Positions 20,855 through 43,259 are shown, numbered from the stretch's first letter. The stretch: 64,000 nt of DNA from Candidatus Eiseniibacteriota bacterium (GCA_043815815.1 JBDRIO010000006.1:24583-88582); one strand, 5' to 3'. Made by a program: numbers and translations. The notes: a model not told the origin generated them from the sequence alone.

Positions 20855-20872
20855 TCCCCGGGGGTGCAAGAG

Positions 20873-22765: not shown

Positions 22766-22889
22766 GAAGCGTTCGGGCGGGCCGCCCTGGGGCGGCCGGT
22801 CGGCGGAGCGTCGCCGGCGTTCGAACGACACGACCGACCGAAGGGTTATGCGGATTCCTTAAAGACCGGCTAGAGGCGGGAGACGCTAG

Positions 22890-24243: not shown

Positions 24244-24246
24244 CCG

Positions 24247-25791: not shown

Positions 25792-25808
25792 GGAGTGGAG
25801 ACCATAAG

Positions 25809-26312: not shown

Positions 26313-26566
26313 TGCAGACGTTCCTGATGCTTCTGATCATAGGGACCTTCATCTGCCTCTACCGGGTGGCGAGGGGGCCGACGGCGCCCGACCGGGCAGT
26401 GGCGATCGACACGATCGGTGTGATGGTGGTGGGTATATGCGGCGTGTTCGGGGTCATCACCGGTAAGGACTACTACCTGAACGTGGCGATCGCGTGGGCG
26501 CTCCTGTCCTTCATTGGTACGCTGGCGCTTGCGAAGTACCTGGAGGGGAGGGGATTCGATGAATAG
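26312..26566 (+). CDS. Mrp/Mnh antiporter subunit F
   Basis: 84 aa. RGPTAPDRAVAIDTIG is the MnhF signature. The start overlaps the mnhE stop by 1 nt. Confidence 0.8.
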   Translation: MQTFLMLLIIGTFICLYRVARGPTAPDRAVAIDTIGVMVVGICGVFGVITGKDYYLNVAIAWALLSFIGTLALAKYLEGRGFDE

Positions 26567-26891
26567 CGGGATCGCACCGTACATCCTGATCTCGATAGGC
26601 GTGGTGTTCGACATCGTCGGCGCCATCGGTCTCATCCGGCTCCCCGACGTCTACAACAGGCTGCAGGCGGCCACCAAGTGCGTCACCCTGGGAACGTGCC
26701 TCATCCTCATCGGCGTTCTCGTTCACAGCGGGTGGAACGCGATGGGCGTCAAGGCGCTCCTGGCCGCGGTCTTCGTTCTCTGGACGTCGCCCACGGGCAG
26801 CCACGCCCTGGCGAGAGGCGCGCACATCTCCGGCGTGCCGCTCTGGCGCGGCAGCGTCGTCGACAGGTACAGGGAAGACACCGGACACTAG
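26559..26891 (+). CDS. Mrp/Mnh antiporter subunit G
   Basis: ATG 26559 lies within track ORF 26514..26891. GAIGLIRLPDVYNRLQAATK is the MnhG signature. 8-nt overlap with mnhF. Confidence 0.8.
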   Translation: MNSGIAPYILISIGVVFDIVGAIGLIRLPDVYNRLQAATKCVTLGTCLILIGVLVHSGWNAMGVKALLAAVFVLWTSPTGSHALARGAHISGVPLWRGSVVDRYREDTGH

Positions 26892-26978
26892 AGACACCGG
26901 ACACCGGATACAACGGACACCGGGTACAACGGACACCGGGTACAACGGACATCGGAGACATCGGCCACCAGAGACGGC
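26883..26978. repeat. About six tandem copies of a 16-bp unit (ggacaccgggtacaac; 8-bp sub-period nACAnCGG), spanning the mnhG stop and the following intergenic space
   Basis: Exact copies at 26915-26930 and 26931-26946, a one-mismatch copy at 26899-26914, and degenerate copies on both sides. An 8-bp-stem hairpin follows at 26972-26990. Confidence 0.85.
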
Positions 26979-27047
26979 GGGACGCCGTCTTCGAGCCCGC
27001 TCTGCAGGCGGGCGCACACGACGCATCCCCGAAGGAGAAGAGTCGCG

Positions 27048-27653
27048 ATGAAGAAACCGAAGCTTCGGGAGCTCAAGGAAGCACTCACGGCGGTCGTGAA
27101 GGGTCCGTACACGAGTACGTTCCCGTTCACCCCGCTCGAGCCAGCCGAGGCCTTCCGCGGGCAGCCCCTCTACAGCGAAGAGGACTGCATCGGCTGCGGC
27201 GCGTGCGCCGAAGTGTGTCCGGCGCGGACGATCGACGTGATAGACGAGGGGAACACCCGGACGCTCATACACCACTTCGACAACTGCATCTACTGCGGGC
27301 AGTGCGAGGCGCTCTGCACGACGAAGAAGGGGATCCAGCTCTCCCACAACTACGCGCTTGCCGTGTTCGACCGCGCGCAGGCCGTCACCACCGTGGAGAA
27401 GGAGCTGGTCCGCTGCGAGCACTGCGGGGACATCATCACGGCTCGCGAGCACCTCGAGTGGATCGCCAGAAAGACAGGCTCGCTCGCAGTCGCTAACCCT
27501 ACGCTCATGGTGACGCTCCACCAGCGGTTCGGGGCGACGCAGGACCCGACGGCGCGTCCCGAGGAGAAACCCATCGGTCGCCACGACTCCTATCTCGTGA
27601 TGTGTCCGGCCTGCAGGCGCGAGGTCTACCTGACGGAGGACTGGCTGGGCTAG
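27048..27653 (+). CDS. 2x[4Fe-4S] ferredoxin subunit of group-4 hydrogenase, NuoI/HycF/MbhN-like
   Basis: CIGCGACAEVCP and CIYCGQCEALC. RBS GAAGGAG. Last gene of the cluster. Confidence 0.85.
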   Translation: MKKPKLRELKEALTAVVKGPYTSTFPFTPLEPAEAFRGQPLYSEEDCIGCGACAEVCPARTIDVIDEGNTRTLIHHFDNCIYCGQCEALCTTKKGIQLSHNYALAVFDRAQAVTTVEKELVRCEHCGDIITAREHLEWIARKTGSLAVANPTLMVTLHQRFGATQDPTARPEEKPIGRHDSYLVMCPACRREVYLTEDWLG

Positions 27654-31740: not shown

Positions 31741-32493
31741 ATGAGTTATGAAGACACCGCTCAGTACTACGACAGCTTCGACACGAAGGGGAATCTGCCC
31801 TTCTACATGGACCTCGCCGCGCGGACCGGGGGCAACGTCCTCGAGCTCGGCGTGGGTACCGGGCGCGTCCTGCTCGAGATCGCCAATCTGGGGCGCGAGG
31901 TCGTCGGGGTGGACAACTCCGTCGCCATGCTCCGGGAGGCGAAGAGGAAGCGGCGGGAACTCTACCACGGTGTGAGCGGCCGCTGCCGGCTCCTGCTCGC
32001 GGACATGCTGTCGCTCGACCTCGCTGAGACGTTCGGGCTCGTGTACGCGGCGTCCGGCGGCGTGCAGAGCGGGAGCGTGGACGACCTCCGGGGCATCTTC
32101 CACTCGGCCGCCCGCCATCTCGACGGATCCGGCGTGTTCGCGTTCGACGTGGCGTCGCCCTCATCTCTGCGTCAGACGAAGGCCTTTCCGCCTGAACGCA
32201 GAGAGCTTCCGGGAGGACGGGTCGTCATCCGGTTCGTGGCGCAGACCTACGACGAGGCGACGGACACGGTGTCCTACGACCTCATCTTCAAGGAACACAT
32301 CCCCGGCAGGACCTCAACGGTGACGGTCACCGCTGGCGACGAAGGCGCCGTCGTGACCATGGAGGCCATCGAGGACGCTCTCGACTACGCGCGGCTCGAG
32401 GCCAGAGAGATCTACGGCGACTTCGAGCGAAGCCCGTACGACGACGCGAGCAAGCACATAGTCGTCGTTGCGGGACTCCTGAACGCTCCCTGA
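31741..32493 (+). CDS. Class I SAM-dependent methyltransferase
   Basis: Motif I VLELGVGTGRV and post-I VVGVDNS. Confidence 0.8.
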   Translation: MSYEDTAQYYDSFDTKGNLPFYMDLAARTGGNVLELGVGTGRVLLEIANLGREVVGVDNSVAMLREAKRKRRELYHGVSGRCRLLLADMLSLDLAETFGLVYAASGGVQSGSVDDLRGIFHSAARHLDGSGVFAFDVASPSSLRQTKAFPPERRELPGGRVVIRFVAQTYDEATDTVSYDLIFKEHIPGRTSTVTVTAGDEGAVVTMEAIEDALDYARLEAREIYGDFERSPYDDASKHIVVVAGLLNAP

Positions 32494-32540: not shown

Positions 32541-35500
32541 ATGAGACAGATCGGGTTCGGCCTGATCCACGTTACGTTCGCGCTCTTCCTGATCTTGTTC
32601 GTCCCGCCGGCGGTCGCATTCGCGCAGGCGCCTGATGCTCTTCTGACGCGCGCGGAGCTCAACGACAGGATAGAAGCGCAGAGGATCGAGGGCGACTACG
32701 CCGCGTCCGCGTCCACCGCGCTCGAGCTTCTCGAACTCACGAGGGGTGACACGCTCGCGCAGCGGTTCGAGATCGAGGACGCCGAGCGCCTGAGCGAGAC
32801 GCTCCACCTGGCCGCCGGCCTTCCCGATGGCGAGAGAGCGAGGCTCGCCACGGCCGACAGTCTCGCTCACGAGGGGGAGCTCATGTGGGAGGCGGGCCGG
32901 TTCTCGGACGGGATCGGGATCCTCAAGAGAGAACTCGAGCTGCGCAGGGGCGTCCTCGGGGACGAGCACTCGGAGGTGGCGACCAGCCTCAACAACCTCG
33001 CCGCGCTCATGGCGAGGCAGGGAGACCTGGCGGGCGCGGAGGTGCTCTATCTGGAGGCGCTCGAGCTCAAGCGGAAGGTGCTCGGCGAGGCGCACCCGGA
33101 GGTCGCCCTGTCGCTCAACAACGCCGCGTCGCTCAGACACGCAGAGGGCGACTACGAGACGGCGGAGGCGCTCCTCCGGGAGGCCGTGGAGCTTCTCACC
33201 GCAGCGTTCGGGGAGGAGGATCCGCTCGCAGCGGCCACCCTGCTGAATCTCGCCGGAGTCATGAGGTCTCGGGGGAACTACGCGGATGCGGAGCCGCTCT
33301 ACCGGAAGGTGCTCGCGGTTCGCAGGAGAGTCCTCGGCGGCGACCACCCTCAGGTGGCCGAGGCCATGAACGCCCTCGCGAGCGTCCTCAAGGCGCGGGG
33401 CGACTACAGCGGAGCGGAGCCCCTCTACCGGGAGGCGTTCGCCATCCGCCGCAGGCACCTCGGGGAGTCGCATCCCGCGACGGCTCAGAGCCTCAACAAC
33501 CTCGCCGCCTTCCTGTACGCGCAGGGGAGCTACGGCGAGTCGGAGCCGCTCTTCCGCGAGGCGCTCGAAATCCGGAAGCGTTCGCTCGGGGCCAACCATC
33601 CGGAGGTCGCCCAGAGTCTCAACAACCTCGCCGCGGCGCTGTACGCCCAGGACAACTACGCCGCCGCGGAGCCCCTGTACGAGCAGGCGCTCGAGATGCG
33701 GCGCGAGCTCCTCGGGGCCGGACACCCGAGCTATGCGTCGAGCCTGTACAACCTCGGCGTCCTTCAGAAGGCGAAGGGCGACTACGAGGCGGCGCGCGGG
33801 ACGCTCCGCGAGTCGCTCGAACGGAGGCGCGTCCTCCTCGGCGACGAGCATCCGGAGACGGCAACGAGCCTCTACAATCTGGGCGAGGTGAACTACTTCA
33901 TGGGCAGGTACGCCCGGGCGGACTCCATGTACCGCGAATCGCTGGCCGTGAGGCGGCTCGCGCTCGGCAACGAGCACCCGCACGTTGCGGTCACGCTTCA
34001 CCGGATGGGCGTCTCTCTCAAGGTCGGCGGAGACTACGCGGCGGCCGAACCGGTGCTCGAGGAGGCGTGTCTCGCCTACGACGCGGCCAGACTTCGCGCG
34101 GGAGCGGGCGTGTCGAAGGCCACGTTCCTGAAGAGCCCCTACGCCGACCTCGCGGAGACGAAGCTCGCCCTCGGTAAGATGGAGGAGGCCTGGCCACCCG
34201 CCGAGAGGTTCCTGGCGCGGACGCTCACGGACCTCCTTATCACGGCGTCGGTTCGGGACCTCACGGACGCCGAACTCGCGCGCGAGGACTCGCTGGAGAC
34301 GCGGCTCGCCGGCCGCGAGCGCGACCTGTCGGGGTATCGCATGGCGGCGCGGTCGGACGAAACGGGAGAGGCCGCGGCGCTCGTCGTCGGGGCGCGGACC
34401 GCGTTGCTCGAAGCCGAGGCCGATTGGAGCGCGTTCCAGCGCGAGATGTCGGACAGGTATCCGGTGTCAGAGGGGCGGGAGGCCACGCTCGCCGACGTTC
34501 AGAGAACGCTCGGCGAGAGCGCCGCCATCATCGGGTGGCTCGACGCCGAGGCAGGCGCCGAAGCGTACGAGTCGTGGGGCTACGTGATCCGCCGGGAGGG
34601 ACCGGTCTTCTGGGCGCATCTGGGTCGGTCGGGGGTCGGCCCGGTCGCGTCGGTCTACGAGTCGTTCCGGGCGCTCGGCGAGGCCCTGTCCGACCCCGAG
34701 TCGACGGAGTTGGGCGTCAGGATCGACGCGGCAGGTCTGTGGAGTGCGCGGATGGCCCCCCTTGTTCCCGCGCTCGAAGGCGTGCGGGATCTCATCGTAG
34801 TGCCTTCGGGGGCCACGCTCGGGGTCCCCGTCGAGACGCTGGTGGCGGGGGACGGGGCGCTCCTCGGGGAGCGTTTCGCCGTGTCCTACGTGCCGTCGTC
34901 TACGCTCTATGCGTGGTTGACCACACGCGCGGCGAGGGCCGGGTCGGGCAAGGGGTCCCTCCTCCTCGGGGACCCGCCGTTCTGCGCCTCCCACCTTGCC
35001 GAGATGCCGCCGGCCGATGCGGCGGTGAGCGCGGAGAACTCCCCCGATGGCGACAGCGGGAGCATCGACGCCGACGGTCTCGTGTCGGACGCCGAGGCGC
35101 GTGATGAGAAGGCGGTCGCGCCGGAGGCGATCGGACCGCTGGCCGTCCTTCCGCGGCTACCCGGCACGCGCGACGAGGTGCTGGCGCTTCAGGGTGTCAT
35201 CGACGGCCCCGTCGTGCTCCTTGGGCCGGACGCATCGGAGGAGGCCCTCGTGGAGTTCGCGGAGTCCGGCCGCATGTCGGACTTCGATATCCTCCACCTC
35301 GCCACACACGCGCACGTCGACGACCGCGTCCCCGGACGCTCCGCCCTCGTTCTCTCGCAGGTCGGTCTTCCGGATCCGATCGCGGCCGTCACCTCCGGCG
35401 ACCGCGTGTTCGACGGGATCCTGACGGCGCGCGAGATCGTGAGTGAGTGGGACCTCGGGGCCGACCTCGTCACTCTGTCGGCGTGCGAGACCGCCCTCGG

Positions 35501-35861
35501 ACGCGAGGTCGGCGGGGAGGGCTACATCGGGCTCGCGCATGCCTTCCTGCAGGCCGGGGCCCGGAGCCTCCTGGTCAGTCTCTGGAAGGTCGAGGACCGC
35601 GCGACGTCCCTTCTCATGACACGCTTCTACGAGAACCTCACGGGCAGAGGGAGCGGCGCCGGCGCTGCCGGCGACGCCGGCACTGTGGGAGGCGTCGCCC
35701 TGGACGGCGCCACCGCGGACGGCGCGGCGCCGATGCCCAAGGCCGAGGCGCTCAGGGAGGCGAAGCTCTGGCTTCGCGAGTACACCGACGAGGCGGGCGC
35801 CAGACCGTATCACCATCCGTTCTTCTGGTCGGCGTTCGTGCTGATGGGAGACAGGTCGTAG
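32541..35861 (+). CDS. Secreted TPR-repeat + CHAT (caspase-like protease) domain protein, paralog 1
   Basis: 1106 aa. Hydrophobic N-terminus LIHVTFALFLILFVPPAVAFAQA. About 10 kinesin-light-chain-type TPR units (AEPLYREAL.IRRR.LG..HP.VA.SLNNLA). C-terminal CHAT domain with ILHLATHAHVD (His) and LVTLSACETALG (Cys). Confidence 0.85.
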   Translation: MRQIGFGLIHVTFALFLILFVPPAVAFAQAPDALLTRAELNDRIEAQRIEGDYAASASTALELLELTRGDTLAQRFEIEDAERLSETLHLAAGLPDGERARLATADSLAHEGELMWEAGRFSDGIGILKRELELRRGVLGDEHSEVATSLNNLAALMARQGDLAGAEVLYLEALELKRKVLGEAHPEVALSLNNAASLRHAEGDYETAEALLREAVELLTAAFGEEDPLAAATLLNLAGVMRSRGNYADAEPLYRKVLAVRRRVLGGDHPQVAEAMNALASVLKARGDYSGAEPLYREAFAIRRRHLGESHPATAQSLNNLAAFLYAQGSYGESEPLFREALEIRKRSLGANHPEVAQSLNNLAAALYAQDNYAAAEPLYEQALEMRRELLGAGHPSYASSLYNLGVLQKAKGDYEAARGTLRESLERRRVLLGDEHPETATSLYNLGEVNYFMGRYARADSMYRESLAVRRLALGNEHPHVAVTLHRMGVSLKVGGDYAAAEPVLEEACLAYDAARLRAGAGVSKATFLKSPYADLAETKLALGKMEEAWPPAERFLARTLTDLLITASVRDLTDAELAREDSLETRLAGRERDLSGYRMAARSDETGEAAALVVGARTALLEAEADWSAFQREMSDRYPVSEGREATLADVQRTLGESAAIIGWLDAEAGAEAYESWGYVIRREGPVFWAHLGRSGVGPVASVYESFRALGEALSDPESTELGVRIDAAGLWSARMAPLVPALEGVRDLIVVPSGATLGVPVETLVAGDGALLGERFAVSYVPSSTLYAWLTTRAARAGSGKGSLLLGDPPFCASHLAEMPPADAAVSAENSPDGDSGSIDADGLVSDAEARDEKAVAPEAIGPLAVLPRLPGTRDEVLALQGVIDGPVVLLGPDASEEALVEFAESGRMSDFDILHLATHAHVDDRVPGRSALVLSQVGLPDPIAAVTSGDRVFDGILTAREIVSEWDLGADLVTLSACETALGREVGGEGYIGLAHAFLQAGARSLLVSLWKVEDRATSLLMTRFYENLTGRGSGAGAAGDAGTVGGVALDGATADGAAPMPKAEALREAKLWLREYTDEAGARPYHHPFFWSAFVLMGDRS

Positions 35862-35907
35862 CGCGTCCCATCGGGTCACCGCCGCACATCGAAAGAGGGC
35901 CAGCCAC

Positions 35908-38900
35908 ATGAGATCACTGAGACTCGGGACGGTCGTCGTCGTTGCTGCGCTTTCGTTGTGCGCGTTCGGGGCGACTCACTGCCGCGCGCAGGACGACGAT
36001 CCGACCGCGGCGCTCTACGACCGGATACTCGAGCTGCGTCTGTCCGGCAACTACATCGAGGCGGCCGCGGCGGCGGGGGAGCTGCTCGAGCTGATGCGGC
36101 AGGACACGAACGCGCCGGCGCTGGACGTGGAGGACGCCTCGCTCCTGACCGATGCTCTGCAGTTCGCGGCCGGGCTCCCCGAGGAGGCGCGCCTGGAACT
36201 TGCCCGGGCCGACAGCCTCGGTCTCGCCATGGAGGAGTTCTGGGGCCAGGGGCTCTACGCCGAGGGCGCCGAGGCCGCCGCGGGGCGCCTCGCGATCTAC
36301 CGCAGGCACTTCGGCGACCGGCACCTCTCGACGGCGACCGCCACGGACGAGCTCGCGTCGCTTCTCCAGTACCAGGGCGAGTACGAACGGGCCGAGCCGC
36401 TCTTCCTCGAGGCGCTGGACGTCAGACGGGAGACGCTCGGAGAGAGACACACGTACGTAGGGGCGAGTCTCAACAACCTCGGGATGCTCTATCAGTCGAC
36501 GGGCGACCTCGAGTCCGCCCGCACGCACATCACGGACGCGCGTTCCATCCTGGAGGAGTCCCTGGGCGAGAACGACCTGAACGTGGCCGCGATCACCGCC
36601 AACCTTGGCATGCTTCTCCAGTATCTGGGCGACTTCGACGGCGCCGAACGGCATCTGCGAAAGGCGCTGACGGTGAGGCGAGACGTTCTCGGCGACGAGA
36701 CCCCCGAGGTCGCGTCAAGTCTGAACAGCCTGGCCAGCCTCTATTACGCGCAGACCGACTACGCCGCGGCCGAGCCGTTCCTCCGGCGTTCGACGGCCAT
36801 ATGGCAGGAGATACTGGGTGACGCGCACCCGCACGTTGCCCTGTCCCTGAGCAACACCGGCGCGCTTCTGAACGCGCGGGGGGAGTACGCGGAGGCGGAG
36901 GCCTTCCACCGTCAGGCGGTCGCGATCTACCGCGCCACGCTGGGCGATGAGCATCCGGACCTCGCGCACGCGCTTCACAACCTCGCGCACGCCCTGGAGA
37001 GCGAGGGCGACTACGCTTCCGCGGAGCCTCTCTTCCGCGAAGCGCTGACGATCCGCCGGGCGGCCCTCGGAGAGTCTCATCCAGACGTGGCGGTCAGCCT
37101 GAACGCGCTGGCGCACGCGCTCCAGGCGGCCGGCAGGTACGACGAGGCCGAGCCGCTCTACCGGGAGGCGCTCGCGATGCACCGGGAGCTCCTGGGCGAG
37201 GAGCACCTGGAGTCCTCGACCGACCTGTCGAACCTCGCGTCTCTCCTGGAGGACTCCGGGCGGCTGGACGAGGCGCTCGAGCTGTACGAGGAGGCCCTCG
37301 ACATACGAACGCGGTCCCTGGGCTCTCAGAGCGGAGCTGTGGCCCACAACCTGAGCAGCATCGGCCACATTCAGCTGCGGGCGGGGGACACGGCCCAGGC
37401 GGAGCGGACCCTCGAGCGTGCCGCGGCGACGTTCGACGCGGCGCGTCTGCGGGCGGGCGCGGGACTGAGCAGGGCCACCACCGCCCTGAGACTCCGGCCG
37501 CCTCTCGTGGCGCTCGCGGCGTGCCGGCTCCAGCTCGGCAAGGTCGACGACGCGTGGCCCGCCGCCGAGCGGGCGCTCGGTCGGGCGCTCGCCGACCTCC
37601 TGATGGCGAGTGAGGAGCGAGCGCTGACCCCGGCCGAGGCGGCCACCGAGGACTCGCTCGAGGGCTCGCTGGCCGCGCTCGAGCAGGAACTCACGGCCTA
37701 CCTGTCCGCCGTGGCGTCCGACACCACAGGCGACACGAGAGCGCTCGTCGACGAGACCCGCGGGCGGCTTCTGCGCGCGGAGGCCGCGTGGAGCGACTTT
37801 CAGAGCCGGATGTCCGACAAGTACCCTCTCACCGAGGGACACATGTTTCCCTTGGGCCGCGTGCAGGCCGCGCTCGAGGACGGCACGGCCGTCGTCGGGT
37901 GGATCGATGTGTCCATTGCTGACGACGACAACGAGTCATGGGGATACGTCATCAGGAAGTCGGGGCCGGTGGCGTGGGCACGCTGCGAGGCCGGTTCCGG
38001 CGGCGACCGGTCGAACCAGCGTAAGTACAAGAGGTACAGAGACCAGCTCGCGTCCCCGTCGTCCTCGGGGACGGGTGTCGGCAGGGACGCCCGCGGCCTG
38101 TGGGCCGAGCGCGTCGAGCCGCTCGCGTTCGCGCTCGAAGACGTCGACGAGCTCGTCGTCCTTCCCTCCGGCATGATGCTCGGGGTTCCGGTCGAGACGT
38201 TCGTCGCGTCCGACGGCGTCCTCCTCGGTGACCGCTTCGCCGTCTCCTACGCGCCGTCCGCGACGGTCTACGCGTGGCTCGAGGAGCGGGGTGGAGGAGC
38301 CGGACGTACGACGAACATGCTGCTCCTGGGCGATCCTCCGTTCACCGACGCCGACCTCGCGGCCATGGAGGCCGAGGTCGACCGCCCGGCCGGCGGCGCC
38401 ACGAGAAGCGCCGGAACGGAGAGGGCCTCGGTCGACGGCCTCCCCAGGCTCCCGGGATCGAGGGACGAGGTCGCCTCGCTGTCGACGCTCTCGCAGAACG
38501 CGACCGTGCTACTCGGGCCGGACGCCACTGAGCAGGAGCTCGTGAGGCTCGGCGCCGAGGGCTCCCTCGGCGAGTTCGGCATCATCCATCTAGCGACGCA
38601 CGCGATGGTCGACGACGAGCGCCCGGACCGGTCGGCGCTCGTGCTGTCGCAGGTCGGTCTCCCGGATCCTCTTGAGTCGGCGCTAGCCGGGGAGCGCATC
38701 TACGACGGCCTGTTGACGGCGGGCGAGATCGTTCGCGAGTGGGACCTGGAGTGCGACCTGGTGACGCTCTCAGCCTGTGAAACGGGGCTCGGACGGGAGG
38801 TCGTGGGGGAGGGATACATCGGATTCGCCCACGCGTTCTTCCAGGCGGGAGCCCGCAGTCTCCTGGTGAGCCTGTGGAAGGTCGAGGACACGGCCACGTC

Positions 38901-39105
38901 GCTCCTGATGCGCCGCTTCTACGAGAACGTCTTCGGAAGCTACGAGGGGGCGCGCGCGGGACGGTCCGGCTCGCCGATGAGCAAGGCGGAAGCGCTTCGC
39001 GAGGCGAAGGCGTGGCTCCGGAGCTACAGCGAGGAGGACGGCTACGAGCCCTACGCTCATCCGTACTACTGGTCCGCCTTCGTTCTCATCGGGGACAGGG
39101 GTTAG
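35908..39105 (+). CDS. Secreted TPR-repeat + CHAT (caspase-like protease) domain protein, paralog 2
   Basis: 1065 aa. Signal-like VVVVAALSLCAFGATHCRAQ. TPR units as in paralog 1. IIHLATHAMVDD and LVTLSACETGLG. The C-terminus YWSAFVLIGDRG matches paralog 1. Confidence 0.85.
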   Translation: MRSLRLGTVVVVAALSLCAFGATHCRAQDDDPTAALYDRILELRLSGNYIEAAAAAGELLELMRQDTNAPALDVEDASLLTDALQFAAGLPEEARLELARADSLGLAMEEFWGQGLYAEGAEAAAGRLAIYRRHFGDRHLSTATATDELASLLQYQGEYERAEPLFLEALDVRRETLGERHTYVGASLNNLGMLYQSTGDLESARTHITDARSILEESLGENDLNVAAITANLGMLLQYLGDFDGAERHLRKALTVRRDVLGDETPEVASSLNSLASLYYAQTDYAAAEPFLRRSTAIWQEILGDAHPHVALSLSNTGALLNARGEYAEAEAFHRQAVAIYRATLGDEHPDLAHALHNLAHALESEGDYASAEPLFREALTIRRAALGESHPDVAVSLNALAHALQAAGRYDEAEPLYREALAMHRELLGEEHLESSTDLSNLASLLEDSGRLDEALELYEEALDIRTRSLGSQSGAVAHNLSSIGHIQLRAGDTAQAERTLERAAATFDAARLRAGAGLSRATTALRLRPPLVALAACRLQLGKVDDAWPAAERALGRALADLLMASEERALTPAEAATEDSLEGSLAALEQELTAYLSAVASDTTGDTRALVDETRGRLLRAEAAWSDFQSRMSDKYPLTEGHMFPLGRVQAALEDGTAVVGWIDVSIADDDNESWGYVIRKSGPVAWARCEAGSGGDRSNQRKYKRYRDQLASPSSSGTGVGRDARGLWAERVEPLAFALEDVDELVVLPSGMMLGVPVETFVASDGVLLGDRFAVSYAPSATVYAWLEERGGGAGRTTNMLLLGDPPFTDADLAAMEAEVDRPAGGATRSAGTERASVDGLPRLPGSRDEVASLSTLSQNATVLLGPDATEQELVRLGAEGSLGEFGIIHLATHAMVDDERPDRSALVLSQVGLPDPLESALAGERIYDGLLTAGEIVREWDLECDLVTLSACETGLGREVVGEGYIGFAHAFFQAGARSLLVSLWKVEDTATSLLMRRFYENVFGSYEGARAGRSGSPMSKAEALREAKAWLRSYSEEDGYEPYAHPYYWSAFVLIGDRG

Positions 39106-39160
39106 CGTGTTCGTGAGGCGGCCTTCAGACGGGCGAGAACGCGAGGGCGCGAGAAGGCGC

Positions 39161-39188
39161 GAACCTCCCCCCCTCGTTGATTGTAGTT
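39161..39188 (+). promoter_or_regulatory. GAACC-N17-GTAGTT motif upstream of FecR-like paralog 1 (ECF-sigma-like promoter candidate)
   Basis: gaacc at 39161-39165 and gtagtt at 39183-39188. The same arrangement occurs at 40255-40282. Confidence 0.35.
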
Positions 39189-39285
39189 CATTCGGTTGGG
39201 GATCCCGCCGTCTTGCGGTAGTATCAGGCTCGAGCGCCACGCACATCTTGCGGAGAACCGTGCGTGCGCGGGGGAGGTAAGTCCG

Positions 39286-40209
39286 TTGAGACATACGCCG
39301 CTTTTGGTTCTGGCCGTCGCGATCTCCATGGTCATGGCCCAGTCACCGCTCAGGGCCGAGCCGGCCGATAGCGTCTCCACCGGCGTCTGCGCGGGTGTGG
39401 TCGTGTCGGTGCGTGGCGACGTGAAGGTGGAGCGGGACGGGTCGAGCGAACCGGTGACCGAGGGGCTTGTTCTGCAGGACGGCGACATCGTGTCGGCGCC
39501 CGACGGAGCGAGGTGCACCGGCTTCACGCCGTCCGGTGAGCCTTTCGACCTTCCCGGTCCCGGCGAGCTGCGTCTGGCCATCACGCAGGCGGAGGGCGTC
39601 ATCGACCGGGTGTCTCTCTGGGTCCGAAGGCAGCTCACGCAGTGGATCGGGGAGAGCAGGCGTCAGCCCATCGTGACCAGGACCCTCATGCGCGACTGGG
39701 AGGTCGAGACGCTGACCCCGGCGCCGATAATCCCGGCACCAGGGGGACACGTGAGACCCGGGGCCTCGGTCTTCTATTGGGGATCCGTGCCGGGGATCGA
39801 CAGCTACACGGTCACCCTCGTCGCCGACGACGGCAAGGAGTCCAGCAAGATCGTGCGGAGCCACAGGCTCGTCATCGACGACCTCGTTCCCGGCCAGGAG
39901 TACGTCTGGAAGGTCCAGCCCTCCGTGGACGGCTGGACGGGCCGGTCGAAGTGGCGGAGCTTCCGGGTCATGCTCTCCGAGGAGGAGAACAGCCTGGACG
40001 GCGCGCTCCGGGAGATGGACGATCTGGAGGCGGGCGTCCTTCTCCTGTCCGCCGGCCTGCACGACGAGGCCGTGTACCGTCTGGACGCCGCCGTGGGCTC
40101 GGGGTCCCAGGCCCAGTCCGCCCGCCGGTGGCGGGCCCAGACGATGGCCGAGATAGGGCTCTATCAGGAGGCGTACGAGGACCTCGTGAGGAGCTGGGGC
40201 GAGTCCTGA
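39286..40209 (+). CDS. Secreted FecR-like domain + Fn3-like + TPR-like tail protein, paralog 1
   Basis: TTG 39286 lies 8 nt after GGGGAGG, within track ORF 39196..40209. Signal LLVLAVAISMVMAQSPLRA. FecR-like pattern VVVSVRGDVKVERDGSSEPVTEGLVLQDGDIVSAPDGARC. Fn3-like YWGSVPGIDSYTVTL..LVPGQEYVWKVQP. Confidence 0.65.
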   Translation: MRHTPLLVLAVAISMVMAQSPLRAEPADSVSTGVCAGVVVSVRGDVKVERDGSSEPVTEGLVLQDGDIVSAPDGARCTGFTPSGEPFDLPGPGELRLAITQAEGVIDRVSLWVRRQLTQWIGESRRQPIVTRTLMRDWEVETLTPAPIIPAPGGHVRPGASVFYWGSVPGIDSYTVTLVADDGKESSKIVRSHRLVIDDLVPGQEYVWKVQPSVDGWTGRSKWRSFRVMLSEEENSLDGALREMDDLEAGVLLLSAGLHDEAVYRLDAAVGSGSQAQSARRWRAQTMAEIGLYQEAYEDLVRSWGES

Positions 40210-40254
40210 GGCAGGTGGCTCTGCCGGCGGCCCGGAGATTCCTGAGGTTCGCCC

Positions 40255-40282
40255 GAACCTGGGCGGCCTCCCGTCTGTAGTT
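40255..40282 (+). promoter_or_regulatory. GAACC-N17-GTAGTT motif upstream of FecR-like paralog 2
   Basis: gaacc at 40255-40259 and gtagtt at 40277-40282, about 70 nt before the ATG at 40354. Confidence 0.35.
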
Positions 40283-40353
40283 ATTCATGGAGGCGCCGGA
40301 ACGGCGCCAGGATCGGTTCGGCTCACTTGAGACGATGGAACAGGGAGGTTCAC

Positions 40354-41256
40354 ATGCGCATATTCTCCTCCAAGAGAGCCCGCATGGGGCTCATGCTCTT
40401 CTGCCTCTGCCTCTTCCTGCCTGTCGCCGCCGGCGCCGACTGGTCCGGCGGCCTCATGGTGTCGGTGAACGGAGAGGTGGTCGTGCGGCGCGGAGAGGTC
40501 GACGAGCTTGCGAAGGAGGGATATGTCCTTCGCGAGGGCGACACGATCGTCGTGCGGATGGGGGGCGAATGCAGCGGGTTCACTCCCGTGGGAGAGGCGT
40601 TCGACCTCAAGGGTCCCGCGGAGATGCAGCTCGCTGCGGCGAGCGGTCTCGGCGGGGACCTCGCCGCGTGGGTGCGTCTGCAGCTCGCCGACTGGATCGG
40701 GGAGAGCCGCAGGCAGCCTCTCCGTACGCGCACCGTGCGCGACTGGTCGCTCCCGACGGAGGCCCCGACCCAGATCATACCAGCGTCCGGCGGGAGGGTC
40801 CGTCCGGCCGACGCGCGCCTCTACTGGAGCGAGGTGCCGGGCGTCGGCAGCTACACGTTGACGATCGCGCCGTCCGCGGGTGAAGAGGTCCAGCGCGTTG
40901 TCCGTGACAACGGCGCGGTGCTCGAGGAGCTCGTTCCGGGCGAGGAGTACGTCTGGAAGGTGCAGCCCGAGGCCGAGGGCTGGGACGGCGAGAGCGGCTG
41001 GCGCGACTTCGTGGTCATGACGCCCGAGGAGGAGGTGCGACTCGACCAGGCGATGGAGGGTCTTGGCGATCTCGAGGCGGGAGTCCTCCTTCTGTCGTCC
41101 GGACTTCACGAGGAGGCGATCTACCGGTTCGACGTCGCGGTCGCCTCGGCCAGCCAGGTTCGCTCGGCCCGGATGTGGAGGGCGAGGGCCTTCGCGGACA
41201 TCGGGCTCTACAAGCAGGCATACGAGGACCTGATCGAAGCCAGAGGTAACGAGTGA
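40354..41256 (+). CDS. Secreted FecR-like domain + Fn3-like + TPR-like tail protein, paralog 2
   Basis: ATG 40354 follows GGGAGG, within track ORF 40327..41256. Signal MGLMLFCLCLFLPVAAGA. Collinear with paralog 1 throughout: WIGESRRQP, LVPGEEYVWKVQP, LEAGVLLLSSGLHEEAIYR. Confidence 0.65.
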   Translation: MRIFSSKRARMGLMLFCLCLFLPVAAGADWSGGLMVSVNGEVVVRRGEVDELAKEGYVLREGDTIVVRMGGECSGFTPVGEAFDLKGPAEMQLAAASGLGGDLAAWVRLQLADWIGESRRQPLRTRTVRDWSLPTEAPTQIIPASGGRVRPADARLYWSEVPGVGSYTLTIAPSAGEEVQRVVRDNGAVLEELVPGEEYVWKVQPEAEGWDGESGWRDFVVMTPEEEVRLDQAMEGLGDLEAGVLLLSSGLHEEAIYRFDVAVASASQVRSARMWRARAFADIGLYKQAYEDLIEARGNE

Positions 41257-43139
41257 CATCACGCGGAAGACGATTGGGGAGCTGGCTTCGACGCCTGCTC
41301 CCCCTCGTTTATCTGATCCCGATCGCGTACCTGGCGCGCCCCATCTTCTGGGCGCCGCTCGACGCGCGGTTCTTCAACTACTTCCACTCGAAGCGTCCCG
41401 TGGCTCCGTGGACGGAGGTCGCCGTGGTCGGCATCGACCGACCGACCCGCGACGAGCTCCTCGAGCAACCCGTGTTCCCCCTCTCCAGGCACACCGAGAA
41501 GCACGCGCACATCGTGCGGGTCCTGGACGCCGCCGGTGCCAGGGCCATCGTCTTCGACCTGTCGCTCGGAGCCGACACCTTCGACGACCCGCCCGTCGAA
41601 TTCGCGGAGGCCCTCCGCGCGTCCGGCAAGGGGTTCATGGTCATGTCGCTTCGGGAGGAGCGCCGGACAGCCAGGTCCGGGGACACGTCCGTGCTGCTGA
41701 CCGCGAGTCTTCCCGACTCGATCCTCGTGAACGCCGCGCAGGGCGCCTTCGTCGCGGACGTCCGGACCGACTCCGACGGCACCGTGCGCCGGTTCGACCG
41801 CGACGAACGACTGACCCGCCTCGGGCTCGAGTCGCTCCCCGAGCGGCTCGCCGGGGTTCAGGCCGAGGGAAGTATCCCGATCGAGTTCCCGTCCATGAAC
41901 GTGACGATACCGGTCGTCTCGTACAAGGACGTCTACAACGAGGACGCCGATGCCCTGTCGGTCATTCCAGGTCGCATCGCCCTCGTCGGACTCGTCGACG
42001 ACCCATCGACCGACTTCGTCACGGTGCCGAGGCTCCAGGACATCGGCGGTGGCGTGGAGGCCTTCGGGCTCCCCGGCGTCGTGGTCCTAGGGGCCATCAC
42101 CGAGACGCTTATCCGTGGCGCGCCCATACGAGACGCGTCGTGGCAGGTGACGCTCCTGTGGATACTCCTCTGGTGCATCGCGTGCGTGTCAGTCATGTCG
42201 AGGCGTCGTCCGACGCTCGCGGCGTTCATAGCGCTCGGCGTCATCGCCGCCTGTCTCGTGGCGACGGGGTTCCTCCACGCCAGGGCGGACGTGGTGTTGC
42301 CCGGCGGGATGGTGCTCGGGAGCCTGCTGCTCGTGGGCGCGTTCACGCTCGTCAGCAATCACGTCGAGACGACGAAGGAACTCCACCTGGAGGCCGTCGA
42401 GAACGAGCGGGTCCGGAAGGAGCTCGAGACGGCGCGGCAGACGCAGGAGAGGTTCCTTCCCGACAACATCCCACAGGTTGAGGGTTTGGACGTCTGGGGC
42501 ATCAACGTAAGCTCTCTGGCGGTGTCCGGCGACTACTTCGACGTGATAGACCTGAACGACGGCAAGCCCCTGGTCTTCACGATAGCTGACGTGTCGGGCA
42601 AGGGCCTCCCCGCGTCGCTTCTCATGTCGAACGTTCAGGCCGGCCTGCACTGCCACGCGTTCCTGCCGGAGTTCGACCTCAAGGTCACCACAGAGAACCT
42701 CAACCGGCTCGTCCATCAGAACACGGACCCCGGCAAGTTCGTGACCCTGTTCCTGGGTGCGATCGACAAGGACACACAGCTCCTCCGATACGTCCGTGCT
42801 GGGCACGACAACCCGATACTCGTCTCGAAGGGGGGGGACGTCCGCCAGCTGGAGGAGGGTAGCTTCGTACTGGGGTTCGTTCCGGACGCCGAGTACGACG
42901 TCGCCGAGGTCCAGCTCATCGAGGGCGACGTGCTCTGTCTGTACACCGACGGAGTGACCGAAGCGCGGAACCCAGGCGACGAGGAGTTCGAGCTGGACCG
43001 CGTCATTCAGATCGTCACGGCGCACCGCCGGGAGTCGGCCGAGGAGATAGGGAAGGTGCTCCTCCAGTCGGTGCGGGACTTCTCGCAGCTCGCTCAGCAG
43101 GCCGACGACGTGACGCTCATCGTCCTCAAGGTCGGCTGA
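41253..43139 (+). CDS. CHASE2 extracytoplasmic sensor + 3 TM + PP2C/SpoIIE-type serine phosphatase
   Basis: The GTG start overlaps the upstream stop (GTGA). CHASE2 pattern VAVVGIDRPTRDEL...ARAIVFDLSLGADTFDDPPVEFAEAL, then three TM helices. SpoIIE pattern SGDYFDVIDL, FTIADVSGKGLPASLLM, RAGHDNP, LCLYTDGVTEA, DDVTLIVLKV. Confidence 0.85.
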   Translation: MTSRGRRLGSWLRRLLPLVYLIPIAYLARPIFWAPLDARFFNYFHSKRPVAPWTEVAVVGIDRPTRDELLEQPVFPLSRHTEKHAHIVRVLDAAGARAIVFDLSLGADTFDDPPVEFAEALRASGKGFMVMSLREERRTARSGDTSVLLTASLPDSILVNAAQGAFVADVRTDSDGTVRRFDRDERLTRLGLESLPERLAGVQAEGSIPIEFPSMNVTIPVVSYKDVYNEDADALSVIPGRIALVGLVDDPSTDFVTVPRLQDIGGGVEAFGLPGVVVLGAITETLIRGAPIRDASWQVTLLWILLWCIACVSVMSRRRPTLAAFIALGVIAACLVATGFLHARADVVLPGGMVLGSLLLVGAFTLVSNHVETTKELHLEAVENERVRKELETARQTQERFLPDNIPQVEGLDVWGINVSSLAVSGDYFDVIDLNDGKPLVFTIADVSGKGLPASLLMSNVQAGLHCHAFLPEFDLKVTTENLNRLVHQNTDPGKFVTLFLGAIDKDTQLLRYVRAGHDNPILVSKGGDVRQLEEGSFVLGFVPDAEYDVAEVQLIEGDVLCLYTDGVTEARNPGDEEFELDRVIQIVTAHRRESAEEIGKVLLQSVRDFSQLAQQADDVTLIVLKVG

Positions 43140-43181
43140 GGCGCGACCCACACGGGCCGGAGCCACCCACGCGTGAACGAG

Positions 43182-43217
43182 AGAGGCGCGACCCACACGG
43201 GCCGCGCCTCTTCTTCT
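43182..43217 (+). terminator. Rho-independent terminator after the CHASE2-PP2C gene
   Basis: 9-bp stem agaggcgcg / cgcgcctct with a 12-nt loop and a tcttct tail. Confidence 0.6.
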
Positions 43218-43259
43218 GGAGCCTCATCGCGGCCAGGTCACTCGAGCCGCGCTTCCGCC

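What the first reader, a model, noticed from the sequence alone, without database searches (positions are those of the whole stretch)
32541..43139. Stand-alone extracytoplasmic TPR-CHAT x2 / FecR-like x2 / CHASE2-PP2C phosphatase module: candidate protease-triggered signalling or envelope-defence system
Five co-directional genes lie here, with gaps of 46, 180 and 144 nt and a final 4-nt GTGA overlap. The module ends at a terminator (43182) and a convergent pepF.

- Genes 1-2 are tandem paralogs of about 1,100 aa. Each has a signal-like N-terminus, about 10 KLC-type TPR repeats and a C-terminal CHAT caspase-like domain. The His (HLATHA) and Cys (LSACET) dyad is intact in both.
- Genes 3-4 are tandem paralogs of about 300 aa. 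Each has a signal peptide, a FecR-like beta domain, an Fn3-like domain and a helical tail.
- Gene 5 is a CHASE2 periplasmic sensor with three TM helices and a cytoplasmic SpoIIE-type PP2C phosphatase. It is translationally coupled to gene 4.

Established parallels exist. The TPR-CHAT protease Csx29 of type III-E CRISPR systems cleaves Csx30 to control a sigma factor. FecR domains are anti-sigma or signal-relay modules. SpoIIE-family phosphatases drive partner-switching sigma control. Here there are no cas genes, and every sensing or proteolytic part is predicted to be outside the cytoplasm.

My inference is that a periplasmic caspase-like protease acts on, or is regulated by, the FecR-like proteins. 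The signal would then be read by CHASE2 and passed to a cytoplasmic phosphatase. I do not know of a characterised system with this composition.
Basis: partly seen in the sequence, partly recalled or inferred. Interest (0 to 1): 0.85.

Follow-up and report, generated by a model that had tools for sequence, protein, structure and literature searches.

The report
Periplasmic CHAT / MtxA-like / CHASE2-phosphatase signalling module
Five real, co-directional genes of an uncultured Eisenbacteria chromosome form a conserved cell-envelope signalling module: two exported caspase-like TPR-CHAT proteins, two periplasmic MtxA-like (not FecR) proteins and a membrane CHASE2 sensor fused to a PP2C phosphatase. 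No paper in the searched library holds both CHASE2 and CHAT.

Summary
The five genes exist at the stated coordinates and with the stated spacing. Pfam supports TPR_12/TPR_10 plus CHAT for genes 1 and 2 (E about 1e-61) and CHASE2 plus SpoIIE-PP2C for gene 5. The "FecR-like" label for genes 3 and 4 failed: none of 52 family members hits Pfam FecR.

A confident AlphaFold model shows a signal peptide, a small beta-sandwich, a helix, a conserved disordered basic linker, an Fn3 domain and a short TPR tail. The Fn3+TPR part best matches MtxA of magnetotactic bacteria. mtxA is likewise followed by a CHASE2 sensor gene. The N-domain best matches the LapA/MpIBP retention module.

In every one of about 20 related loci, an MtxA-like gene sits directly upstream of CHASE2-PP2C. 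Almost all of these loci are Candidatus Eisenbacteria. One to three TPR-CHAT genes are usually adjacent, in varying order and with varying flanks. In three loci they are only fragments. The pair is therefore the core and the protease is an accessory.

My best reading is an envelope signalling module in which the MtxA-like protein is the CHASE2 co-sensor. The exported CHAT proteases may act on it, possibly at the conserved linker. Nothing marks it as a defence system, and the window holds no partner-switching genes. I rate it a new variant of the known but unexplained triad of CHASE2 sensor, periplasmic partner and TPR protein.

The parts
32541..35861 (+). g1: exported TPR-CHAT protein (1106 aa). 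It has a signal-peptide-like N-terminus, about 9-10 KLC-type TPR repeats, a helical middle region and a C-terminal CHAT caspase-fold domain with the His/Cys dyad.
   Evidence: Pfam TPR_12 5e-100, TPR_10 3e-94, CHAT 1e-61. N-terminus MRQIGFGLIHVTFALFLILFVPPAVAFA/QA. HLATHA and LSACE motifs. GGAGG lies before the ATG.
35908..39105 (+). g2: paralogous exported TPR-CHAT protein (1065 aa), 47% identical to g1.
   Evidence: Pfam TPR_12 2e-117, CHAT 3.6e-61. BLASTP against g1 gives 47% identity over the full length. N-terminus MRSLRLGTVVVVAALSLCAFGATHCRA/QD. The dyad motifs are present.
39161..39188 (+). Conserved bipartite motif GAACC-N16-TGTAGTT, 98 nt upstream of the g3 start. It is a candidate promoter for an alternative (ECF-like) sigma factor.
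   Evidence: The motif has exactly two perfect matches in the window, here and before g4, against 0.11 expected. The same two positions are matched in L006, L007 and L009. The promoter role is an inference.
39286..40209 (+). g3: periplasmic MtxA-like protein (307 aa). It has a signal peptide, a retention-module-like beta-sandwich, a helix, a conserved basic linker, an Fn3 domain and a short TPR tail.
   Evidence: TTG start after GGGGGAGG. 53% identical to g4. Weak fn3 hit and weak retention_LapA hit.
40255..40282 (+). Second copy of the GAACC-N16-TGTAGTT motif, 72 nt upstream of the g4 start.
40354..41256 (+). g4: second periplasmic MtxA-like protein (300 aa), translationally coupled to g5.
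   Evidence: AlphaFold2 model with pLDDT 85. The top PDB fold match is 4z29, the MtxA C-terminal domain (E 4.8e-8, TM 0.66). The N-domain's top match is 5ix9, a retention module. 24 of 52 relatives weakly hit NF033682 retention_LapA. There is no FecR hit.
41253..43139 (+). g5: membrane sensor phosphatase. It has an N-terminal anchor, a periplasmic CHASE2 domain, three TM helices, a coiled linker and a cytoplasmic SpoIIE-type PP2C.
   Evidence: Pfam CHASE2 3.4e-21, SpoIIE 6.5e-48. Hydrophobic helices and the metal-binding motifs GDYFD, DVSGKG, YTDGV and DDVT. GTGA overlap with g4.
43182..43218 (+). GC-rich hairpin followed by TTCTTCT. It is the likely transcription terminator of the module.
   Evidence: RNA fold centroid hairpin at 43182-43211 and the sequence. 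The simple consensus scan did not call it.

Best explanation
This is a chromosomal, lineage-specific cell-envelope signalling module.

**Core pair.** The core is the MtxA-like periplasmic protein (g3/g4) and the CHASE2-PP2C membrane phosphatase (g5). The gene for the partner lies directly upstream of the sensor gene and is translationally coupled to it. I infer that the MtxA-like protein binds the periplasmic CHASE2 domain as its co-sensor or ligand-presenting partner and sets the activity of the cytoplasmic PP2C. The PP2C then dephosphorylates a Ser/Thr-phosphorylated regulator encoded elsewhere in the genome.

**Accessory input layer.** The exported TPR-CHAT proteins (g1/g2) form an accessory layer. 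Their TPR arrays would recognise a protein or peptide cue in the envelope. Their caspase-fold His/Cys domain would then process a periplasmic target. The most likely target is the MtxA-like protein, cut at its conserved, disordered, Arg-rich linker (ESRRQPLRTRTVRDW). That linker lies between the retention-module-like N-domain and the Fn3-TPR body. This resembles the way the periplasmic Cys protease LapG cuts LapA just after its retention module.

**Shown.** Domain identities, predicted export signals and membrane topology, paralogy and conserved gene linkage.

**Inferred.** The binding of the MtxA-like protein to CHASE2, any proteolysis, its target and the downstream substrate.
For: 1. Domain calls come from Pfam.
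2. In all related loci examined, an MtxA-like gene lies immediately upstream of CHASE2-SpoIIE. The spacing ranges from a 4-nt overlap to 43 nt in the loci where both gene boundaries were called.
3. One to three full-length TPR-CHAT genes are adjacent in 14 of about 17 informative loci. They lie upstream (window, L001, L009, L031), downstream (L003, L014) or on both sides (L004). In L003, L004 and L014 the flanking genes are unrelated to those of the window, so the linkage is not inherited synteny alone.
4. Signal-peptide-like N-termini and the His/Cys dyad are conserved in most orthologous TPR-CHAT proteins.
5. The g4 family model (pLDDT 85) matches MtxA Big+TPR (4z29, E 4.8e-8). MtxA is a periplasmic protein whose gene is followed by a CHASE2 cyclase gene. 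A Sel1/TPR gene lies in the same cluster (PMC4439547, PMC5088516).
6. The N-domain matches the LapA/MpIBP retention module (5ix9, TM 0.63/0.76). 24 of 52 relatives weakly hit NF033682.
7. The linker 121-133 is predicted to be disordered (pLDDT below 50), yet it is as conserved (0.68) as the folded domains (0.62-0.72). R126 and R129 are invariant, and R119 and W131 are conserved in at least 90% of members.
8. Homologous TPR-CHAT proteins elsewhere sit in signalling operons. One follows an ECF sigma and a zf-HC2/TPR anti-sigma (L025). Another is followed by a Ser/Thr kinase (L027).
9. CHASE2 sensors with a FecR-domain and a TPR partner have been reported as conserved clusters (PMC9239204). S. 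meliloti CHASE2 cyclases sense a protein signal through an envelope partner (PMC13001267). Fusions of a caspase p20 domain with CHASE2 have been reported in cyanobacteria (PMC7475262).
10. g3 and g4 share a dedicated, conserved bipartite upstream motif.
Against: - There is no experimental or structural evidence for any of the proposed contacts or for proteolysis.
- In three loci (L005, L015, L030) only CHAT fragments remain beside an intact MtxA-like/CHASE2-PP2C pair. The protease is therefore dispensable locally, or is supplied in trans.
- TPR-CHAT and MtxA-like copy numbers do not track each other (1:1, 3:1, 1:2, 2:2). This argues against strict cognate protease-substrate pairs.
- No STAS, RsbW-like kinase or sigma gene lies in the 64-kb window, so the output is unknown.
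- Signal peptides were judged by eye and by hydropathy, not with SignalP.
- An mtxA deletion in Magnetospirillum had no phenotype (PMC4439547).
- Sequence-level homology to MtxA was not detected.
Confidence: 0.5

Rival explanations
1. The module is the same, but the CHAT proteases do not act on the MtxA-like proteins. They process or scaffold other envelope or surface proteins, for example secreted adhesins or T9SS-type cargo. The MtxA-like/CHASE2-PP2C pair independently senses an envelope cue, possibly the cleavage products, or merely co-regulates with the proteases.
For: - The pair persists where CHAT genes have decayed (L005, L015, L030).
- Copy numbers are uncoupled.
- g1 and g2 lack the GAACC-N16-TGTAGTT motif that precedes g3 and g4, so they may be transcribed separately.
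- A giant adhesin-like gene of more than 6000 aa lies directly upstream of the module in L031 and L032.
- Cyanobacterial CHAT genes sit with two-partner-secretion genes.
Against: - The conserved disordered basic linker in the MtxA-like proteins needs an explanation.
- TPR-CHAT stays adjacent through several rearrangements.
- No other conserved candidate substrate gene lies in the module.
Confidence: 0.25
2. This is a FecR-type trans-envelope relay, the parallel that the first reader drew. Under this reading g3 and g4 are divergent FecR homologues. They would receive a signal from an outer-membrane receptor and pass it to the CHASE2 sensor, as FecR-domain proteins next to CHASE2 sensors are assumed to do.
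For: - FecR-domain genes commonly precede CHASE2 sensor genes. Examples are the Bosea plasmid locus L018 (FecR 6.7e-11 next to CHASE2-PAS-GGDEF-EAL, with a ShlB-type barrel), the Burkholderia LysM-FecR plus CHASE2 kinase (PMC5192318) and Campylobacterota (PMC9239204).
- One of 52 relatives weakly hits LipL45. From memory, LipL45 is a FecR-domain lipoprotein.
- The N-domain shows a G-x-V-x-V...GD...G sequence pattern reminiscent of such beta-domains.
Against: - None of 52 members hits PF04773 at E <= 1.
- hhalign against a genuine FecR protein gave a probability of 0.6%.
- No FecR-family structure is among the top fold matches.
- No TonB-dependent receptor, ShlB-type barrel or sigma factor gene lies next to the module.
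Confidence: 0.1
3. This is an anti-phage or abortive-infection defence system that uses a caspase-like effector protease, by analogy with Csx29/Craspase and other CHAT-containing defence systems.
For: - CHAT proteases occur in defence systems. This rests on general knowledge and on the Csx29 model in NCBIfam.
- Paralogue expansion (1-3 CHAT copies) and variable gene order are seen in conflict systems.
Against: - PADLOC models give no system-specific hit, only generic TPR hits and one weak CARF-type hit on g1 within the TPR region.
- Csx29 similarity is 14 bits against a cut-off of 300.
- The proteases carry export signals, so they would not meet cytoplasmic phage components.
- The locus lies about 30-40 kb from dnaA among housekeeping genes. 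It is syntenic across relatives at about 60% identity and is not in a mobile or defence island.
- No nuclease, NTPase or cas genes are adjacent.
Confidence: 0.05
4. The genes are neighbours by descent only and do not work together.
For: - Close relatives share even the flanking housekeeping genes: methyltransferase, YjbQ and epimerase upstream and pepF downstream. Part of the conservation is therefore plain synteny.
Against: - In L003, L004 and L014 the trio recurs with different flanks and a different order.
- The g4-g5 translational coupling is conserved.
- MtxA and CHASE2 pair independently in Alphaproteobacteria (PMC4439547).
Confidence: 0.05

Closest known systems
mtx cluster of magnetotactic bacteria: a Sel1/TPR protein, MtxA and a CHASE2 adenylate/guanylate cyclase (PMC4439547, PMC5088516; PDB 4z29)
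   Same: MtxA and g3/g4 are both periplasmic proteins of about 300 aa. Each has a signal peptide, an N-terminal beta region, an Ig/Fn3-like domain and a two-repeat TPR tail (fold match E 4.8e-8). In both cases the gene lies directly upstream of a CHASE2 membrane sensor gene, and a TPR-class repeat protein lies in the same cluster.
   Different: The output here is a SpoIIE-type PP2C phosphatase rather than a cyclase. The repeat protein here is a 1100-aa exported TPR array fused to a CHAT protease domain. The MtxA-like gene is duplicated. No sequence-level match to MtxA was detected. The function of MtxA is itself unknown, and its deletion gave no phenotype.
Clusters of a CHASE2 sensor, a FecR-domain protein and a TPR protein. 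Examples are the Campylobacterota CHASE2 cyclase clusters (PMC9239204), the Burkholderia LysM-FecR plus CHASE2 histidine kinase (PMC5192318), the Bosea plasmid locus L018, and S. meliloti, where the Clr-target protein SMc02177 has a FecR domain and the CHASE2 cyclases CyaD1, CyaD2 and CyaK drive Clr (PMC5498481).
   Same: In the clusters named above, a secreted beta-rich protein is encoded immediately before a CHASE2 sensor. Often there is a TPR protein as well. The output domain is interchangeable between lineages.
   Different: The partner here is not a Pfam FecR protein. The TPR protein carries a protease domain. The output is PP2C.
LapA-LapG-LapD adhesin release system
   Same: A periplasmic cysteine protease is present together with a protein whose N-terminal small beta-sandwich resembles the LapA/MpIBP retention module (5ix9; NF033682 weak hits in 24 of 52). 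That domain is followed by a flexible segment. The protease is coupled to an inner-membrane signalling protein.
   Different: LapG is a transglutaminase-like protease, not a CHAT protease. LapD is a c-di-GMP receptor, not a CHASE2-PP2C. g3 and g4 are 300-aa soluble proteins, not giant RTX adhesins. No LapE/TolC-type pore gene is adjacent. The retention-module similarity is below the family cut-off.
Type III-E CRISPR Craspase (gRAMP with Csx29 TPR-CHAT, cleaving Csx30 to free a sigma factor)
   Same: Both have a TPR plus CHAT architecture with an intact His/Cys dyad. In both, a protease is linked to transcription-factor-type signalling. A homologous, signal-peptide-less TPR-CHAT lies in an ECF sigma/anti-sigma operon (L025).
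   Different: There are no cas genes. The Csx29 model scores 14 bits against a cut-off of 300. The proteins here are predicted to be exported. No sigma or anti-sigma gene lies in the window.
RsbU/SpoIIE partner-switching phosphatases
   Same: g5 has a SpoIIE-family PP2C catalytic domain with all metal-binding Asp motifs.
   Different: The input is a transmembrane CHASE2 domain. No STAS (RsbV/SpoIIAA) or RsbW/SpoIIAB gene lies in the window.

Membership tests
CHAT (PF12770) caspase-fold proteases | Match to the family HMM above the curated cut-off | tested here: met
   g1 scores 209 bits and g2 scores 208 bits against a cut-off of 24.
CHAT (PF12770) caspase-fold proteases | Catalytic His and Cys dyad | tested here: met
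   HLATHA and LSACE are present in g1 and g2 and in 8 of 9 CHAT-type proteins scanned in related loci. One L013 copy keeps the His motif but lacks the Cys pattern. The assignment is by motif position, not by a structural superposition.
CHAT (PF12770) caspase-fold proteases | Proteolytic activity | not testable with these tools
   This needs an in vitro assay.
Csx29 / type III-E Craspase | Match to the NF041237 Csx29 model, and adjacency to gRAMP/cas genes | tested here: not met
   The model scores 14 and 10 bits against a cut-off of 300. The flanking genes are a methyltransferase, YjbQ and Peptidase_M3.
FecR (PF04773) | Match to the FecR domain HMM | tested here: not met
   None of 52 family members matches at E <= 1. 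hhalign against the Bosea FecR-family protein gave a probability of 0.6%. No FecR-family structure is in the top 50 fold hits.
MtxA-like periplasmic proteins | Ig/Fn3-like domain packed on a two-repeat TPR domain (4z29 fold) | tested here: met
   Foldseek top hit is 4z29_A, with E 4.8e-8, TM 0.66 normalised to the target and 180 aligned columns. The model has pLDDT 85.
MtxA-like periplasmic proteins | About 300 aa with a signal peptide, and a gene directly upstream of a CHASE2 sensor gene | tested here: met
   g3 is 307 aa and g4 is 300 aa, both with signal-like N-termini. Adjacency holds in all loci. The MtxA context is from PMC4439547.
MtxA-like periplasmic proteins | Detectable sequence homology to MtxA | tested here: inconclusive
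   A profile search of PDB sequences returned only Fn3 and TPR proteins and not 4z29. The structural alignment shows 16-19% identity.
LapA-type retention module (NF033682) | Match to the family model, and the retention-module fold | tested here: inconclusive
   24 of 52 relatives hit the model, with a best E of 1.4e-4, but all are below the 50-bit cut-off. The N-domain model's top PDB hit is 5ix9, with E 7.6e-3 and TM 0.63/0.76.
CHASE2 (PF05226) sensors | HMM match, and the topology TM1, periplasmic domain, three TM helices, cytoplasmic output | tested here: met
   76 bits against a cut-off of 26. Helices lie at 298-316, 322-340 and 347-371. The N-terminal segment is hydrophobic (my hand-computed Kyte-Doolittle mean, about 1.6) and follows a basic stretch.
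SpoIIE/RsbU-type PP2C phosphatases | HMM match and metal-binding Asp motifs | tested here: met
   164 bits against a cut-off of 25. GDYFD, DVSGKG, YTDGV and DDVT are present.
Partner-switching module (PP2C with a STAS anti-anti-sigma and an anti-sigma kinase) | STAS and RsbW-type genes nearby | tested here: not met
   About 45 window ORFs were scanned and none carries a STAS, HATPase_c_2 or sigma domain. The rest of the genome was not available.
Known anti-phage defence systems (PADLOC-DB 2.0) | Match of any component to a defence-system model | tested here: not met
   g1 and g2 hit only a generic TPR model, and g1 also gives one weak CARF-type hit inside its TPR region. g3, g4 and g5 have no hits.

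The most novel reading that the evidence does not exclude
A periplasmic caspase-fold (CHAT) protease cleaves a dedicated MtxA-like adaptor at its conserved Arg-rich linker. The cleaved or uncleaved adaptor is the true ligand of the CHASE2 domain. Regulated proteolysis in the periplasm would thus be converted into cytoplasmic Ser/Thr dephosphorylation. This would be a proteolytic trans-membrane signalling cascade of a kind not described before. It would also give the first mechanistic answer to what CHASE2 domains sense: a partner protein rather than a small molecule.
Probability: 0.22. Interest if true: 0.8.

Novelty: new variant of a known kind. Interest (0 to 1): 0.6.

Why it matters
CHASE2 is a widespread bacterial sensor domain with no known direct ligand. 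Several genome papers have noted that CHASE2 sensors travel with a secreted beta-rich protein and a TPR protein, but none explains why. This module replaces the plain TPR partner with an exported TPR-CHAT protease and the usual cyclase or kinase output with a PP2C. That suggests a concrete and testable logic: protease, then adaptor, then CHASE2, then phosphatase.

If the logic holds, three things would follow.
- MtxA, a protein with a solved structure and no known function, would gain a function.
- Caspase-fold proteases would be shown to signal in the bacterial periplasm.
- CHASE2 systems in rhizobia, Burkholderia and Campylobacterota would become easier to interpret.

If it does not hold, the locus is still a well-delimited, lineage-specific signalling operon of an uncultured phylum.

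Tried and rejected
- **Exhaustive HMM search with the g3/g4 family profile.** It was swamped by giant multi-Fn3 proteins. The roughly 300-aa hits that I scanned had no FecR domain, so the search did not extend the family usefully.
- **Genome scan of 185,579 species representatives.** It found only 12 loci, the named ones being Eisenbacteria/Effluviviaceae MAGs. The subfamily is therefore narrow, and broad co-occurrence statistics could not be drawn from it.
- **Sequence search of the CHAT domain against PDB.** It returned only chance hits to ISG15.
- **tblastn of the CHASE2 and CHAT regions against PLSDB plasmids, plus seven annotated neighbourhoods.**
  - The one CHASE2 hit I inspected (Bosea) has a FecR neighbour. 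The other CHASE2 hits were not examined.
  - The CHAT proteins inspected on plasmids are not next to CHASE2 or FecR. They sit with caspase-family genes, with two-partner-secretion genes or with TPR-kinases.
  - A universal CHAT-CHASE2 link is therefore rejected.
- **hhalign of the g3/g4 profile against the anti-sigma-like protein of L025 and the unknown neighbour in L027.** No relationship was found.
- **Literature searches for CHASE2 with CHAT and FecR, and for CHASE2 with "CHAT domain".** Both returned zero papers.
- **Sigma-70 promoter and terminator scan.** It was uninformative in this 68% GC region. It also mis-scored part of the g4 upstream motif as a terminator-like stem.

Full report

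Yes, with one correction. Five co-directional ORFs occupy 32541-43139. They are g1 32541-35861 (1106 aa), g2 35908-39105 (1065 aa), g3 39286-40209 (307 aa), g4 40354-41256 (300 aa) and g5 41253-43139 (628 aa).

- The starts of g1, g3 and g4 are each preceded by a GGAGG-type ribosome-binding site.
- Third-position GC is 0.86-0.89, as in the window's other coding-like ORFs.
- Pfam gives very strong TPR_12/TPR_10 and CHAT matches for g1 and g2 (CHAT 1e-61 and 4e-61). It gives CHASE2 (3e-21) and SpoIIE (6.5e-48) for g5.
- g1 and g2 are 47% identical over their full length. g3 and g4 are 53% identical.
- The HLATHA and LSACE motifs are present in both CHAT domains.
- A GC-rich hairpin at 43182-43211 followed by TTCTTCT closes the module.
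- A Peptidase_M3 gene converges on the module.

The correction concerns g3 and g4. They have no FecR domain. None of 52 family members hits PF04773 even at E <= 1.

**2. What are genes 3 and 4?**

A word-indexed search of 5.8 billion proteins found only 111 relatives. All are at least 45% identical and none has a significant Pfam annotation apart from a TPR_16 hit in one. The only names given by sources point to Candidatus Eisenbacteria MAGs.

An AlphaFold2 model built on 52 of these relatives is confident (pLDDT 85, pTM 0.79). It shows:
- a signal peptide;
- a seven-strand beta-sandwich (residues 33-92);
- a helix (102-120);
- a disordered segment (121-133);
- an Fn3 domain (140-221);
- a five-helix TPR-like tail (224-296).

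Its best PDB match is 4z29, the Big+TPR C-terminal domain of MtxA from Magnetospirillum (E 4.8e-8).

MtxA is a 313-aa periplasmic protein with a signal peptide. [quoted passage not shown] The mtx cluster also holds a Sel1 (TPR-class) protein (PMC5088516).

I modelled the N-terminal sandwich separately. Its single clear PDB match is 5ix9, annotated as a cell surface anchoring domain (TM 0.63/0.76). From memory, 5ix9 is the retention module of a LapA-like adhesin, MpIBP. Independently, 24 of 52 relatives give sub-threshold hits to NCBIfam retention_LapA.

So g3 and g4 are MtxA-like proteins with a retention-module-like N-domain. A relation to FecR is not excluded at great distance, but no test here supports it.

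**3. Is the gene linkage meaningful?**

Every relative I could place on a contig has the MtxA-like gene directly upstream of a CHASE2-SpoIIE gene. The spacing ranges from a 4-nt overlap to 43 nt in the loci where both gene boundaries were called.

Full-length TPR-CHAT genes are adjacent in 14 of about 17 informative loci. Both their number and their position vary:
- two upstream (window, L001, L009, L013);
- one upstream (L007, L008, L010, L012, L031);
- one downstream (L003, L014);
- one upstream and two downstream (L004).

L003, L004 and L014 lie in a different genomic neighbourhood (AAA ATPase, PFK, methionine synthase) from the window (methyltransferase, YjbQ, pepF). The trio therefore stays together through rearrangement.

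In L005, L015 and L030 only CHAT fragments remain next to an intact pair. I conclude that the MtxA-like/CHASE2-PP2C pair is the core and TPR-CHAT is an accessory.

The subfamily is narrow. There are 12 loci among 185,579 species representatives, and the named ones are Eisenbacteria/Effluviviaceae MAGs. One further MAG is labelled Latescibacterota.

**4. Localisation**

- g1 to g4 begin with a basic n-region, a hydrophobic core and an Ala-X-Ala-like site.
- Most orthologous TPR-CHAT proteins in other loci also start with hydrophobic signal-like segments, and 10 of the 11 CHAT-type proteins scanned (window plus related loci) keep the dyad.
- g5 has a basic N-terminus followed by a hydrophobic segment, then CHASE2, then three strong hydrophobic helices, then a PP2C with all four Asp-containing motifs.

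These are sequence-based judgements. SignalP and DeepTMHMM were not available.

**5. Other features**

A bipartite motif, GAACC-N16-TGTAGTT, occurs exactly twice in the 64-kb window. One copy lies 98 nt before g3 and the other 72 nt before g4. Only 0.11 matches are expected by chance. The motif is conserved at both positions in L006, L007 and L009. An AAC-containing -35-like box with a 16-nt spacer is typical of ECF-type promoters; this rests on general knowledge and was not tested here. It suggests that g3 and g4-g5 have their own regulated promoters, separate from g1-g2.

The disordered linker of the MtxA-like proteins (ESRRQPLRTRTVRDW) is as conserved as the folded domains. R126 and R129 are invariant, and R119 and W131 are conserved in at least 90% of members. 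Such a segment is a natural candidate for a protease site or a binding motif.

**6. Wider context of the parts**

- The middle-plus-CHAT region of g2 has more than 1600 relatives.
- One signal-peptide-less homologue is the third gene of an operon: ECF sigma, then a zf-HC2/TPR anti-sigma, then TPR-CHAT (L025).
- Another homologue is followed by a Ser/Thr kinase (L027). This TPR-CHAT family is therefore repeatedly wired to signalling proteins.
- CHAT genes on plasmids are not next to CHASE2 or FecR, so the link seen here is lineage-specific.
- CHASE2 sensors with FecR-domain and TPR neighbours are documented (PMC9239204, PMC5192318; L018). In S. meliloti the Clr target SMc02177 carries a FecR domain (PMC5498481).
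- S. meliloti CHASE2 cyclases sense a protein signal through an outer-membrane partner (PMC13001267).
- Caspase-CHASE2 fusions have been reported in cyanobacteria (PMC7475262).
- No paper in the searched library combines CHASE2 with CHAT.

**7. Mechanism**

My best-supported reading (confidence about 0.5) is as follows. The MtxA-like protein is the periplasmic co-sensor of CHASE2 and sets the activity of the cytoplasmic PP2C. The exported TPR-CHAT proteins add a proteolytic or scaffolding input.

The specific step "CHAT cleaves the MtxA-like linker" is inference only (about 0.2). It is motivated by three things: the conserved disordered basic linker, the retention-module-like N-domain (compare LapA and LapG) and the conserved adjacency.

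The PP2C substrate is unknown. No STAS, RsbW-like or sigma gene is among the roughly 45 window ORFs scanned.

I considered four rivals:
- CHAT acting on other envelope targets (0.25);
- a true FecR-type relay (0.1);
- a defence system (0.05). PADLOC gives no system-specific hit (generic TPR plus one weak CARF-type hit inside g1's TPR region), the proteins are exported and the locus is a core one near dnaA;
- mere synteny (0.05).

**8. Verdict**

The finding is real and well delimited. Its functional linkage is supported by comparative genomics. The FecR label and the Csx29 and partner-switching analogies are not supported as family memberships.

It is best filed as a new variant of the recurrent but mechanistically unexplained triad of a CHASE2 sensor, a periplasmic partner and a TPR protein. 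It is distinguished by a protease-bearing TPR partner and a PP2C output. I score its interest at 0.6. It is a good experimental handle on what CHASE2 domains sense, but it is confined to an uncultured lineage and every mechanistic step is still inferred.

Noticed in passing
window 13-9494: The window opens with dnaA (5' end cut off), dnaN, recF, gyrB and gyrA. This is the replication-origin region of the chromosome, so the module lies about 30-40 kb from dnaA.
   Followed up: partly
window 13606-27653: A long + strand cluster holds Fe-S/FAD oxidoreductase subunits and a molybdopterin (formate-dehydrogenase-like) oxidoreductase. It also holds NADH-dehydrogenase/NiFe-hydrogenase-like subunits and Mrp/Mbh antiporter-like subunits (MbhD/E, MnhB, MnhE, MnhG). 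It looks like a formate-hydrogenlyase or Mbh-type energy-converting complex.
   Followed up: no
window 39161-39188 and 40255-40282; also L006, L007 and L009: The conserved bipartite motif GAACC-N16-TGTAGTT lies upstream of both MtxA-like genes and nowhere else in the window as a perfect match (0.11 matches expected by chance). It may be an ECF-type promoter. No sigma factor gene was seen in the window.
   Followed up: partly
window 43140-43159 and 43186-43205: A 20-nt direct repeat, GGCGCGACCCACACGGGCCG, occurs twice just after the g5 stop codon. The second copy forms the 5' arm of the terminator-like hairpin.
   Followed up: no
L025 8620-12772: In a 6.45-Mb genome, a homologue of the TPR-CHAT proteins without a signal peptide (43% identity over the middle and CHAT region) is the third gene of an overlapping operon: ECF sigma (Sigma70_r2), then a zf-HC2/TPR anti-sigma-like protein, then TPR-CHAT. 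This is a possible cytoplasmic protease-controlled sigma switch.
   Followed up: partly
window 57577-61329 and 50880-52538: One gene encodes a 1250-aa Peptidase_C25 (gingipain-like) protein with an InhA-like MAM domain and a C-terminal FlgD_ig domain. Another encodes a 552-aa protein with a Por_Secre_tail (T9SS sorting) domain. FlgD_ig C-termini recur on large secreted proteins in the related loci.
   Followed up: no
L031 and L032 1-3537: In two relatives, the 3' end of a gene for a giant protein of more than 6000 aa (Beta_helix, Cadherin, Big_9, Laminin_G_3 domains), which looks like an adhesin, lies immediately upstream of the TPR-CHAT gene of the module.
   Followed up: no
window 55051-56565 (- strand): A 504-aa ORF has coding-like composition (GC3 0.89) but no Pfam match at E <= 1e-4.
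   Followed up: no
window 31741-32493: A class I SAM-methyltransferase gene ends 47 nt before g1, on the same strand. It is syntenic in L001, L007 and L009 but absent beside the module in L003, L004 and L014. It is probably a neighbour rather than a component.
   Followed up: partly
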